Assembly (NCBI GenBank): GCA_003598025.1
Contig: QZKH01000002.1
Location: forward strand, 138,133-202,132
Direction: 5' to 3'
DNA length: 64,000 nucleotides
Origin: Candidatus Omnitrophota bacterium
GTDB lineage: Bacteria; Omnitrophota; Gorgyraeia; Gygaellales; Profunditerraquicolaceae
Part shown: one piece after another, positions 2,687 through 3,586 of the stretch
Numbering within the stretch: position 1 is the first letter of the stretch
Layout: each line of letters begins with the position of its first letter
The notes under the pieces: generated by a model
Database searches by the model: none
What the model was told of the DNA's origin: nothing
The model's input: only the letters and a program-made list of their open reading frames with translations
Position numbers and translations under genes: made by a program

Positions 2687-3586
2687 TTGAGGAGGCAGAA
2701 TGCGTGTCTCCTCCGGAATAATAATAAAAAAATGGCTAAAAAAATCACTATTAAAGGAAATACTTTTAATCTTGTTGGCAGGGCAATAAAAATAGGTGAC
2801 CCTGCCCCTTTTTTTAGGGTTACTTCCCAGGACCTCAATGAAGTAAACCTATCAGGCTTTAATGACAAAATAAAAGTTGTAACTTTCTTCCCTTCCCTTG
2901 ACACGCCGGTATGCGATTTACAGGTAAAAGAGTTTAATAAACAGGCATTAAATCTATCCGGTGATATAATTATTTTAGCAATAAGCAAGGATCTGCCTTT
3001 TGCGCAGAAAAGATTTTGCTCATCAAATGATATCAATAATATCCAGGTCCTCTCCGACTACAGATTTTCCTCTTTCGGGATAAATTATGGGGTTTTGATT
3101 AAAGAGCTTAATCTGCTAGCCAGGGGAGTGGCAATAATAGACAAAACTGATATTTTACGTTATTTCCAGCTGACGGAAGAGCTTACCAGTGCGGTAAATT
3201 TTAATGATGCGCTCGGGTCTTTAAAAGAAGTTCTGGCAAGTCCGCAATCGCCAGCTAAAGGAAACGTCCTGAAAAATAAATGTGTACCCTGCGAAGTCGG
3301 AGGCCAGTCTTTGCCCCTTGCTAAAGTTAATGAGTTGTTATCTCAGATAAAAGGATGGCAGCTTTTAGAGGATAAAAAAATCGTTAAAGAATTTAAGTTC
3401 AATGATTTTATTGAGTCTAAATATTTTCTGGATTTAGTAGCCGTACTTGCAGAAGACCAGGGCCACCATCCGAACATGAGCCTTAATTACAACAGGCTTA
3501 AGATAAGCCTTACTACACATGCGGCAGGCGGTTTGACTGATAATGATTTCATTATGGCTAACCTCATCGATGGGCTAAATGCATAA
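2687..3586 (+). CDS. tpx: Thiol peroxidase (Tpx, atypical 2-Cys peroxiredoxin) fused to a C-terminal pterin-4a-carbinolamine dehydratase (PCD/DCoH) domain
   Basis: Tpx motifs: peroxidatic Cys in FFPSLDTPVCD, resolving Cys in AQKRFCSSND. The C-terminal domain has the PCD signature LAEDQGHHPNMSLNYNRLKISLTTHAAGGLTDNDF. RBS GAGGAGG sits before ATG 2687. An alternative start ATG 2732 (MAKKITIKG) matches canonical Tpx N-termini. Confidence 0.8.
   Translation: MRRQNACLLRNNNKKMAKKITIKGNTFNLVGRAIKIGDPAPFFRVTSQDLNEVNLSGFNDKIKVVTFFPSLDTPVCDLQVKEFNKQALNLSGDIIILAISKDLPFAQKRFCSSNDINNIQVLSDYRFSSFGINYGVLIKELNLLARGVAIIDKTDILRYFQLTEELTSAVNFNDALGSLKEVLASPQSPAKGNVLKNKCVPCEVGGQSLPLAKVNELLSQIKGWQLLEDKKIVKEFKFNDFIESKYFLDLVAVLAEDQGHHPNMSLNYNRLKISLTTHAAGGLTDNDFIMANLIDGLNA

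What the first reader, a model, noticed from the sequence alone, without database searches (positions are those of the whole stretch)
2687..3586. Thiol peroxidase (Tpx) covalently fused to a pterin-4a-carbinolamine dehydratase (PCD/DCoH) domain
The N-terminal 165 aa form a textbook Tpx, with peroxidatic Cys in FFPSLDTPVCD and resolving Cys in KRFCSSND. The C-terminal 110 aa carry the PCD signature AEDQGHHP...LTTHAAGGLTDNDF, and a CVPCEV CxxC sits in the linker. Tpx and PCD are normally separate proteins. The fusion implies that peroxide reduction is coupled to pterin 4a-hydroperoxide/carbinolamine chemistry, or that the PCD-like module is redox-gated. It sits inside an oxidative-stress island (rubredoxin, superoxide reductase, rubrerythrin-like proteins, glutaredoxin, TrxB).
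Basis: partly seen in the sequence, partly recalled or inferred. Interest (0 to 1): 0.7.

Follow-up and report, generated by a model that had tools for sequence, protein, structure and literature searches.

The report
Peroxidase fused to pterin dehydratase
This is a real single gene, conserved across the uncultured phylum Omnitrophota, that joins a thiol peroxidase to a pterin-4a-carbinolamine dehydratase. Nobody appears to have described the fusion, and it gives a testable lead on what this dehydratase does in microbes that lack its usual partner enzyme.

Summary
One uninterrupted ORF encodes a complete Tpx-type peroxiredoxin (T58, CP C61, CR C96, R131). It is followed by a complete PCD/DCoH domain (H245, H246, H263, full activity signature). 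Its real start is most likely ATG 2732 (284 aa), not TTG 2687.

It is not an artefact. At least 120 protein clusters share the same two-domain layout, and about 23 species-level genomes carry it, mostly labelled Omnitrophota. It almost always sits among superoxide reductase, rubredoxin, rubrerythrin-like, glutaredoxin and TrxB genes. The PCD half is better conserved (75%) than the Tpx half (68%); the linker is variable (42%).

- The CxxC is not a linker feature. It is the invariant N-terminal motif of a large subfamily of unfused PCDs.
- Apparently "standalone" Omnitrophota PCD entries are truncated gene calls of intact fusions.

New findings: rhodanese–Tpx–PCD triple fusions exist, and the window has that rhodanese directly upstream. 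One Omnitrophota clade has secondarily lost the PCD half.

The function is inferred, not shown. I propose a bifunctional oxidative-stress enzyme that removes peroxides and rescues oxidised reduced pterins. Direct hand-over of a pterin hydroperoxide between the two domains is possible but unsupported. No paper describing the fusion was found. Verdict: new variant of known kinds, moderate interest.

The parts
2732..3586 (+). Tpx-PCD fusion gene (284 aa plus stop). The listed ORF starts at TTG 2687, but ATG 2732 matches all homologues.
2732..3232 (+). Thiol peroxidase (Tpx, atypical 2-Cys peroxiredoxin) domain, aa 1-167. Key residues: T58, peroxidatic C61 (2912-2914), resolving C96 (3017-3019), R131.
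   Evidence: Pfam and NCBIfam. PDB alignments. These residues are invariant in 38 homologues. Foldseek TMt about 0.9 to solved Tpx structures.
3233..3274 (+). Variable inter-domain linker, aa 168-181.
   Evidence: pLDDT below 50 for aa 173-180. Mean pairwise identity is 42%, against 68% and 75% for the two domains.
3281..3292 (+). Cys184-Val-Pro-Cys187 motif at the N-terminal edge of the PCD domain.
   Evidence: Invariant in the fusions and in 75 of 75 sequences of a PCD subfamily that includes unfused proteins. Absent from every solved PCD chain.
3275..3583 (+). Pterin-4a-carbinolamine dehydratase (PCD/DCoH) domain, aa 182-284. Key residues: E241, H245, H246, P247, Y253, H263, D272.
   Evidence: Pfam E 2.5e-26. 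NCBIfam NF002017 is above its cutoff. Alignment to solved PCDs. Activity signature matched at aa 241-272. Fold TMt 0.93 to 3jst.
2011..2382 (+). Single-domain rhodanese with a YCASFEC active-site loop, directly upstream. It is probably functionally linked to the fusion.
   Evidence: Pfam. It is 48% identical to the N-terminal domain of the rhodanese-Tpx-PCD triple fusion P0122. It is also directly upstream of the fusion in L014 and L021, and lies about 1.4 kb downstream of it in L006.
3608..4006 (+). Superoxide reductase (Desulfoferrodoxin family), 21 bp downstream. It is probably co-transcribed with the fusion.
   Evidence: Pfam. A superoxide reductase gene lies near the fusion in L003, L007, L008, L009, L012, L013, L017, L029 and L083. 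No terminator was predicted between the two genes.
7557..8703 (+). Glutaredoxin-like protein (7557-7793) and thioredoxin-reductase-like flavoprotein (7795-8703). These are the likely electron donors to the Tpx half (inferred).
   Evidence: Pfam. The pair recurs near the fusion in at least 8 related loci.
496..1161 (+). Rubredoxin (496-654) and a rubrerythrin-like protein (664-1161). Together with 7069-7554 they complete the oxidative-stress island.
   Evidence: Pfam. Synteny in related loci.

Best explanation
The gene encodes a bifunctional oxidative-stress enzyme of an Omnitrophota-like anaerobe.

Step 1. The sequence shows the catalytic equipment; the chemistry is inferred from the Tpx family. 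The N-terminal Tpx half reduces H2O2 or organic hydroperoxides at Cys61. The resulting sulfenate is resolved by Cys96.

Step 2 (inferred from context). The Cys61-Cys96 disulfide is re-reduced by the glutaredoxin-like/TrxB pair encoded 4 kb downstream.

Step 3. The sequence and fold show the catalytic equipment; activity is inferred. The C-terminal half is a catalytically competent pterin-4a-carbinolamine dehydratase. It converts 4a-hydroxy-tetrahydropterins to quinonoid dihydropterins.

Step 4 (inference). In an organism with no aromatic amino-acid hydroxylase in view, the 4a-oxygenated pterins arise when reduced pterins (folate-type, molybdo/tungstopterin or another) meet O2 or peroxide. The fusion therefore couples peroxide removal with rescue of the oxidised cofactor. 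This prevents its rearrangement to dead-end 7-substituted pterins and guarantees 1:1 co-expression within the stress regulon.

Step 5 (speculative sub-hypothesis). Tpx itself reduces a pterin 4a-hydroperoxide to the carbinolamine that the PCD half then dehydrates.
For: - Both halves carry complete catalytic residue sets. These are invariant across 38 homologues of 60-65% identity. Among the top 120 clusters, 119 carry the D[TS]xVCD CP motif, 120 carry FAQxRFC, 119 carry CxxCE, and 117 carry the HHP...Y...H...D core.
- The PCD half is the more conserved (75% vs 68% mean pairwise identity; linker 42%). It is therefore not a decaying passenger.
- The PCD activity signature is matched at aa 241-272. 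The PCD fold is confirmed, including similarity to the T. gondii PCD-dihydrobiopterin complex.
- The fusion recurs in about 23 species-level genomes and in 25-30 clusters at 50% identity. It is embedded in the SOR/rubredoxin/rubrerythrin/Grx/TrxB neighbourhood.
- Further stress modules are fused to the same pair: rhodanese (P0122, P0133) and a rubrerythrin-like domain (P0123).
- The full-length model has pTM 0.76 despite a disordered linker, which hints at a defined domain arrangement.
- Without PCD, carbinolamine gives 7-substituted pterins (PMC9737128).
- PCDs in organisms without hydroxylases are validated as active and linked to molybdenum-cofactor metabolism (table in PMC3223725).
- From my own knowledge: Tpx enzymes prefer alkyl hydroperoxides, and PCD is tolerant of the pterin 6-substituent.
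Against: - No enzyme activity was measured.
- No pterin, Moco, folate or hydroxylase gene lies in the 64 kb window.
- A nested Omnitrophota clade (L023-L028) lost the PCD half yet keeps Tpx in the same context. Only three conservative substitutions distinguish it, so Tpx is not co-adapted to PCD.
- Several divergent fusions have lost the PCD His residues (P0127, P0138, P0140) or the peroxidatic Cys (P0139, P0151). The two activities can therefore be uncoupled.
- Unfused PCDs of the same CxxC subfamily are not next to peroxiredoxins.
- Free pterin 4a-hydroperoxides are expected to be very short-lived (own knowledge). This makes step 5 the weakest part.
Confidence: 0.45

Rival explanations
1. 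Co-expression only. Both halves are active enzymes, but they do unrelated jobs: general peroxide scavenging and housekeeping pterin recycling. An adjacent gene pair fused by chance. There is no substrate hand-over and no shared role for the PCD half in stress defence.
For: - The Tpx half is essentially unchanged in the clade that lost PCD.
- The linker is long, variable and disordered.
- Each activity has been lost separately in divergent members.
- Unfused PCDs of the same subfamily show no link to peroxiredoxins.
Against: - The fusion has been retained across a family that diverges to 31-36% identity.
- The PCD half is more conserved than Tpx.
- Further stress domains have repeatedly been added to the pair.
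- No unfused tpx-pcd gene pair was seen. The apparent standalone Omnitrophota PCDs were truncated gene calls.
Confidence: 0.3
2. The PCD domain acts mainly as a DCoH-like protein-binding or oligomerisation module. It scaffolds or regulates the Tpx dimer or docks it to a partner, and dehydratase chemistry is irrelevant.
For: - The DCoH fold is a known protein-binding module, as in the HNF1 complex and the acRAF Rubisco assembly factor among the fold hits.
- Some divergent fusions keep the domain after losing its His residues (P0127, P0138, P0140, P0142).
- pTM 0.76 suggests that the domains pack against each other.
Against: - In the main family the complete catalytic signature is essentially invariant.
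- Non-enzymatic relatives such as acRAF have lost these residues and match far more weakly (E 4.2e-06 versus 5.5e-14).
Confidence: 0.12
3. Built-in redox relay. The Cys184-x-x-Cys187 pair sits next to a flexible linker. It serves as an extra resolving or reducing dithiol for the Tpx active site, by analogy with peroxiredoxin-glutaredoxin hybrids. Alternatively it switches PCD on and off with redox state.
For: - The CxxC is invariant.
- It sits next to a flexible segment.
- All six divergent fusions that lost the resolving Cys96 but kept CP still keep Cys184.
Against: - The motif predates the fusion. It is invariant in unfused PCDs that have no peroxiredoxin partner.
- It is not in a thioredoxin or glutaredoxin fold.
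- The sample for the Cys96/CxxC pattern is too small to be significant.
- In divergent members it tends to be lost together with the PCD His triad. This ties it to PCD function rather than to Tpx.
Confidence: 0.1
4. Artefact. A frameshift, a missed stop codon or an assembly chimera has joined two separate genes.
For: One related locus (L029) does carry a frameshift inside the gene. This shows that such errors or pseudogenes occur.
Against: - The same uninterrupted architecture occurs in at least 120 protein clusters from JGI, ENA, NCBI and Logan assemblies.
- It also occurs in about 23 species-level genomes, including closed chromosomes.
- The domain boundary is conserved in all of them.
Confidence: 0.01

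Closest known systems
Thiol peroxidase Tpx (atypical 2-Cys peroxiredoxin; e.g. B. subtilis 2jsy, S. aureus 3p7x, E. coli 1qxh)
   Same: The N-terminal 167 aa are about 36-44% identical to these enzymes in the structure-based alignments. They share the PxxxTxxC peroxidatic motif, a resolving Cys 35 residues later, the conserved Arg, and the same fold with TMt about 0.9.
   Different: Known Tpx proteins are single-domain proteins of about 165 aa. This one carries a 115-aa C-terminal PCD module. No solved structure spans both domains.
Bacterial pterin-4a-carbinolamine dehydratase (PhhB/COG2154; e.g. Brucella 3jst, Geobacillus 2ebb, T. gondii 2v6t)
   Same: Same fold (TMt 0.93, rmsd 1.2 A), same His-His...His triad and same activity signature. 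It also has the N-terminal CxxC typical of a large bacterial subfamily.
   Different: Known PCDs are free-standing proteins of about 90-120 aa. Classically they partner an aromatic amino-acid hydroxylase. Here the domain is fused behind a peroxidase in an anaerobe's stress cluster, and no hydroxylase gene is in view.
Hybrid peroxiredoxins with a fused redox partner (e.g. the Haemophilus influenzae Prx-Grx hybrid; recalled from memory)
   Same: A peroxiredoxin with an extra C-terminal domain that contains a CxxC.
   Different: The extra domain here has the PCD/DCoH fold, not a thioredoxin or glutaredoxin fold. Its CxxC is inherited from unfused PCDs.
Non-enzymatic PCD-like proteins (acRAF/RAF2 Rubisco assembly factors, 4low)
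   Same: DCoH-type fold, reused in a new protein context.
   Different: Those proteins have lost the catalytic residues and match weakly (E 4.2e-06, TMq 0.57). The fusion domain keeps all catalytic residues.

Membership tests
Tpx subfamily of peroxiredoxins | Curated family model scored above its cutoff | tested here: met
   NCBIfam NF001808 (thiol peroxidase equivalog) scores 169.4 bits against a cutoff of 123, over aa 3-165.
Tpx subfamily of peroxiredoxins | PxxxTxxC motif with the peroxidatic Cys, plus the conserved active-site Arg | tested here: met
   P54-S-L-D-T58-P-V-C61 and R131 are present. T58, C61 and R131 are invariant in 38 homologues and aligned to solved Tpx.
Tpx subfamily of peroxiredoxins | Resolving Cys about 34-35 residues after CP (atypical 2-Cys mechanism) | tested here: met
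   C96 in FAQKRFC aligns with the resolving Cys region of B. subtilis and S. aureus Tpx. The motif is present in 120 of 120 top homologues.
Tpx subfamily of peroxiredoxins | Thioredoxin-fold peroxiredoxin structure | tested here: met
   Foldseek TMt 0.84-0.93 and rmsd 1.6-2.5 A to solved Tpx structures.
Tpx subfamily of peroxiredoxins | Thioredoxin-dependent hydroperoxide reductase activity | not testable with these tools
   Requires an enzyme assay. Candidate reductants (Grx-like protein and TrxB) are encoded at 7557-8703.
Pterin-4a-carbinolamine dehydratase (PF01329 / COG2154) | Family model scored above its cutoff | tested here: met
   Pfam Pterin_4a scores 92 bits against a cutoff of 26. 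NCBIfam NF002017 scores 83.8 against a cutoff of 80. The four other PCD equivalog models fall below their own cutoffs.
Pterin-4a-carbinolamine dehydratase (PF01329 / COG2154) | Catalytic His-His...His triad (His62/His63/His80 in mammalian numbering, recalled from memory) | tested here: met
   H245, H246 and H263 have the same 17-residue spacing. They align to the HHP...TH of solved PCDs and are invariant.
Pterin-4a-carbinolamine dehydratase (PF01329 / COG2154) | Activity signature [EDKH]-x3-H-[HN]-[PCS]-x5,6-[YWF]-x9-[HW]-x8,15-D. This is from Naponelli et al. 2008, quoted from memory because the paper could not be fetched. | tested here: met
   A regex match at aa 241-272, EDQGHHPNMSLNYNRLKISLTTHAAGGLTDND. 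The full signature is present in 105 of 120 top homologues. Without its first position it is present in 117 of 120.
Pterin-4a-carbinolamine dehydratase (PF01329 / COG2154) | DCoH-type alpha/beta fold | tested here: met
   The domain model has pLDDT 88.6. TMt is 0.93 to 3jst and 0.91 to 2ebb.
Pterin-4a-carbinolamine dehydratase (PF01329 / COG2154) | Dehydratase activity on 4a-hydroxytetrahydropterin, and a pterin-dependent hydroxylase partner in the genome | not testable with these tools
   Activity needs an assay or complementation. No hydroxylase or pterin gene was found in the 64 kb window. The rest of the genome could not be read.
Peroxiredoxin hybrids with a fused thiol-disulfide reductant domain | The extra domain has a thioredoxin or glutaredoxin fold carrying the CxxC | tested here: not met
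   The extra domain has the PCD fold. Its CxxC lies in a coil before the first helix and is shared with unfused PCDs.
Non-enzymatic DCoH-like modules (acRAF/RAF2 type) | Loss of the catalytic His residues | tested here: not met
   The His triad is retained and invariant in the main family. Only a few divergent relatives have lost it.

The most novel reading that the evidence does not exclude
The fusion is a dedicated repair enzyme for oxidised reduced pterins. The Tpx half reduces a pterin (or folate/molybdopterin) 4a-hydroperoxide, formed on O2 exposure, to the 4a-carbinolamine. The PCD half then dehydrates it to the re-reducible quinonoid form.

This would identify a hydroxylase-independent physiological source of the PCD substrate. 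It would also explain the long-standing puzzle of 'partnerless' PCDs in organisms without aromatic amino-acid hydroxylases. The invariant CxxC and the fused or adjacent rhodanese might take part as thiol relays.
Probability: 0.15. Interest if true: 0.75.

Novelty: new variant of a known kind. Interest (0 to 1): 0.5.

Why it matters
Many bacteria, plants and fungi have a pterin-4a-carbinolamine dehydratase but lack the hydroxylases that make its only known substrate. Its role in those organisms has been open since at least 2008.

This fusion is conserved across a phylum. It joins a fully equipped PCD to an organic-hydroperoxide reductase inside a superoxide/peroxide defence cluster. That is a Rosetta-stone-type hint that the missing role is protection or repair of reduced pterin cofactors under oxidative stress. 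It also supplies a compact, single-polypeptide system in which to test the idea.

There is a practical point too. Public annotations call the protein only 'thiol peroxidase'. In at least three NCBI assemblies the gene call covers only the PCD tail of an intact fusion ORF.

Finally, the work flags an invariant but uncharacterised CxxC motif in a large PCD subfamily.

Tried and rejected
1. Artefact hypothesis: rejected.
2. "CxxC in the linker": rejected. The motif heads unfused PCDs and is invariant in alignment A2.
3. [quoted passage not shown] The three entries checked (P0275, P0284, P0313) are truncated gene calls of intact fusion ORFs.
4. Gene neighbourhoods of five unfused CxxC-type PCDs from other phyla, searched for peroxiredoxins, hydroxylases or Moco genes: nothing relevant.
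5. Pfam survey of nearly all ORFs of at least 70 aa in the window for pterin, folate or Moco genes: none found.
6. Residues that distinguish fusion Tpx from Tpx-only relatives, as a proxy for a domain interface: only three conservative changes.
7. Covariation between loss of the resolving Cys and retention of the CxxC in divergent fusions: suggestive, but the sample is too small.
8. Conservation of the upstream 16-aa Cys/Lys-rich ORF: not conserved.
9. Promoter and terminator scan of 1900-4100: no more promoter-like sites than in shuffled sequence. The five terminator-like sites are all on the minus strand.
10. AFDB50 fold search for UniProt taxonomy: library unavailable.
11. Naponelli et al. 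2008 full text: not held.
12. Literature searches for the fusion, for a PCD CxxC, and for Omnitrophota with superoxide reductase: nothing relevant. A search combining Omnitrophota with oxidative stress or peroxiredoxin returned only unrelated papers.
13. Model coordinates are not exposed. Distances between the two active sites and the CxxC could therefore not be measured.
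Full report
**What is there.** The ORF at 2687..3586 (+) is uninterrupted. Translated from ATG 2732 it gives 284 aa. This is identical to a JGI protein, P0001, from a 409-kb contig. It has the same length and N-terminus (M-x-R-K-I-T-F-K-G) as all close homologues. I therefore take 2732 as the start rather than TTG 2687.
- Pfam finds Redoxin/AhpC-TSA at aa 21-153 and Pterin_4a at aa 196-281, E 2.5e-26.
- NCBIfam's thiol-peroxidase equivalog scores 169 bits against a cutoff of 123. 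One PCD equivalog passes its cutoff at 83.8 against 80.
- Solved Tpx and PCD structures are hit at 4.9e-38 and 4e-13 in the whole-protein search; the PCD domain alone hits 2ebb at 5.5e-14.
- An AlphaFold model of the whole protein has pLDDT 84.3 and pTM 0.76, with residues 173-180 disordered. It superposes on solved Tpx structures with TMt about 0.9.
- A model of the C-terminal 115 aa, built on 75 sequences, has pLDDT 88.6. It superposes on Brucella, Geobacillus and Toxoplasma PCDs with TMt 0.84-0.93.

**Catalytic residues.** In an alignment of 38 fusions that are 60-65% identical to the window protein, the following are invariant:
- Tpx half: T58, C61 (peroxidatic), C96 (resolving) and R131.
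- PCD half: C184, C187, E188, W209, H245, H246, P247, Y253, H263 and D272.

H245/H246/H263 align with the HHP...TH of solved PCDs. The published PCD activity signature, quoted from memory because the paper could not be fetched, matches aa 241-272. Among the 120 best clusters, 119 have the CP motif, 120 have FAQxRFC, 119 have CxxCE, and 117 have the signature without its first position. Mean pairwise identity is 68% for the Tpx half, 42% for the linker and 75% for the PCD half. Both halves are under purifying selection, the PCD half more strongly.

**Not an artefact; distribution.**
- The 5.8-billion-protein search returned at least 120 clusters with the same two-domain architecture, 281-299 aa long. 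Every source-given name is only "thiol peroxidase" or "lipid hydroperoxide peroxidase". Every named organism is Candidatus Omnitrophota/Omnitrophica.
- In GTDB species representatives there are about 23 full-length loci. Twelve are labelled Omnitrophota. The rest carry MAG labels: Planctomycetales/Planctomycetia, Chlamydiota, Patescibacteria, Gammaproteobacteria, Spirochaetota or "uncultured bacterium". I could not verify these labels. Several of these loci share the same neighbouring genes at 60-70% identity.
- In the library clustered at 50% identity (1.84 billion proteins), about 25-30 representatives span both domains, down to 31-36% identity. The ones that carry names are again Omnitrophota, plus one Spirochaetales MAG.
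- A "Candidatus Aureabacteria" MAG also has the fusion.

1. The CxxC is not a linker element. NCBIfam PCD models extend over it. Unfused PCDs labelled Actinomycetota or Dormibacteraceae, and others from unnamed metagenomes, begin with the same K-C-x-x-C...G-T-P-P-L motif. In a 75-sequence alignment of this subfamily the two Cys are invariant, like the His triad. No solved PCD contains the motif, and no paper discussing it was found.
2. The apparently free-standing Omnitrophota and Aureabacteria PCD entries that I checked (P0275, P0284, P0313) are truncated gene calls. The Tpx half lies intact and in frame just upstream.

**Context.** The gene lies in a compact plus-strand block, in this order: CDF transporter C-terminal fragment (the gene runs off the window start), rubredoxin, rubrerythrin-like protein, an ECF sigma fused to a ZAS zinc finger, rhodanese, Tpx-PCD, superoxide reductase, 2-oxoacid:ferredoxin oxidoreductase alpha and beta subunits, a PNPOx-like flavoprotein, a second rubrerythrin-like protein, a glutaredoxin-like protein, TrxB and MazG.
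- The same genes recur around the fusion in related loci, in shuffled order.
- The remainder of the window has thiamine, sulfur-assimilation, siroheme, methionine, NiFe-hydrogenase and Rnf genes, typical of an anaerobe. It has no pterin, folate, Moco or aromatic-hydroxylase gene.

**Evolutionary variations that bear on function.**
- Two 50%-clusters are rhodanese-Tpx-PCD triple fusions. Their rhodanese is 48% identical to the window's upstream rhodanese. That rhodanese is also directly upstream of the fusion in L014 and L021. Another cluster is rubrerythrin-like-Tpx-PCD.
- Six Omnitrophota species have a 170-185-aa Tpx with no PCD in the same rubredoxin-Tpx context. In a neighbour-joining tree (no bootstrap) they form one clade nested inside the fusion clade, which implies secondary loss. 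Their Tpx differs from fusion Tpx at only three conservative positions.
- Among 19 divergent fusion representatives, some lost the PCD His residues, some lost the peroxidatic Cys, and the CxxC is usually lost together with the His triad.

So the pairing is strongly favoured but not obligatory, and the CxxC tracks PCD function.

**Mechanism.**
- Shown: the sequence, fold and conservation of two complete catalytic modules in one polypeptide, and a conserved oxidative-stress neighbourhood.
- Inferred from family knowledge: Cys61/Cys96 peroxide reduction, and re-reduction by the Grx-like/TrxB pair. A comparable TrxR-like/Grx-like system reduces a clostridial peroxiredoxin (own knowledge).
- Inferred: the PCD half dehydrates 4a-hydroxy-tetrahydropterins. 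In this anaerobe these would arise from oxidation of reduced pterins rather than from a hydroxylase. The role would be cofactor rescue, since without PCD the carbinolamine rearranges to 7-substituted pterins (PMC9737128).
- Supporting background: PCDs without hydroxylase partners are experimentally active and linked to Moco metabolism (PMC3223725).
It is chemically tidy but has no support here, and the separability of the two halves argues against tight coupling.

Rival explanations are incidental co-expression, a structural DCoH-like role, and a CxxC thiol relay. They are weighed in the rival-explanations section.

**Comparison and novelty.** Each half is a bona fide member of a well-known family (see the membership tests). 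The combination is not a Prx-Grx-type hybrid, because the extra domain has the PCD fold. It is not an acRAF-type degenerate PCD either, because the catalytic residues are kept. No paper in the searchable library mentions a peroxiredoxin-PCD fusion. I rate it a new variant of known kinds. The sequences are already in public databases under an incomplete name, and the architecture has not been described or studied.

**Verdict.** Interest is about 0.5: a solid, phylum-wide, unreported fusion that makes the "partnerless PCD" question experimentally approachable, but whose proposed coupling remains inference.

Noticed in passing
window 1164-1958 (+): One 264-aa polypeptide combines an ECF-type sigma factor (Sigma70_r2 plus r4_2) with a C-terminal zf-HC2 anti-sigma zinc finger carrying HxxxCxxC (KHIASCPAC). 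It looks like a self-contained redox-sensing sigma/anti-sigma, two genes upstream of the fusion. A homologue lies near the fusion in L006. It is a candidate regulator of the stress island.
   Followed up: partly
window 2011-2382 (+); P0122, P0133; L014, L021: The rhodanese directly upstream has a YCASFEC loop and a Cys-rich tail (SCQACSAC). It is 48% identical to the N-terminal domain of rhodanese-Tpx-PCD triple fusions found in the 50% library. It is also directly upstream of the fusion in two other loci. This is a Rosetta-stone link whose meaning is unknown.
   Followed up: partly
window 2621-2671 (+): A 16-codon ORF (MSCGKCKPRKKAKKKK) sits behind a strong AAGGAGGAGG ribosome-binding site in the rhodanese/Tpx-PCD intergenic gap. 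It is not conserved upstream of the fusion in 24 related loci.
   Followed up: partly
L016 954-1088 and L017 7839-7973: A different 44-aa Cys/Lys-rich small ORF is conserved between two loci just upstream of their fusion genes (e.g. MAKRKTNKARTYVCVVCGKGKRASKKVKCCDKDMVAKKRGTWNA).
   Followed up: no
window 2690-2789 (+): An AGGAGG followed 5 nt later by ATG 2700 opens a 29-codon ORF in another frame. It overlaps the fusion's start at 2732. The ATG at 2732 itself has no good Shine-Dalgarno sequence. This could be an upstream ORF with translational coupling, or chance.
   Followed up: no
L081 4503-5357, L083 4437-5336, L095 3401-4273 (NCBI assemblies GCA_028717645.1, GCA_023818945.1, GCA_026392035.1): The gene tables list only the PCD tail (90-118 aa, '4a-hydroxytetrahydrobiopterin dehydratase') of an intact, in-frame full-length fusion ORF. 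The Tpx half is left uncalled. This is a recurring annotation error that hides the fusion.
   Followed up: yes
L029 7133-7970: In one Omnitrophota MAG the fusion gene is split by a frameshift around aa 127-132. It is either a pseudogene or a sequencing error.
   Followed up: partly
P0135, P0155, P0211, P0266, P0179 (50%-identity library): Other unusual architectures surfaced in the same search: tandem Tpx-Tpx proteins, a lipoprotein-like Tpx plus TlpA/thioredoxin-like fusion, a signal-peptide-bearing PCD-PCD tandem whose first copy carries the HCVPCEGG motif, and a 554-aa protein with four PCD repeats.
   Followed up: partly
L023-L028 (downstream of the Tpx-only genes): In the clade that lost the PCD half, Tpx is followed within a few bases by a ferredoxin-reductase-like gene (MPVEI...FKAGQFL...YLSISSSP). 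A PF00175 NAD_binding_1 gene also sits just upstream of the fusion in L081 and L082.
   Followed up: no
window 40950-45687 and 59211-63194 (+): There is a HypA gene plus a four-subunit group-3-like NiFe hydrogenase with its HycI protease, and an Rnf complex (RnfC/D/E/A-like). At 12773-21222 there is a compact block combining sulfur assimilation (PAPS reductase, small sulfite reductase) with siroheme synthesis. All of this is consistent with an anaerobic lifestyle.
   Followed up: partly
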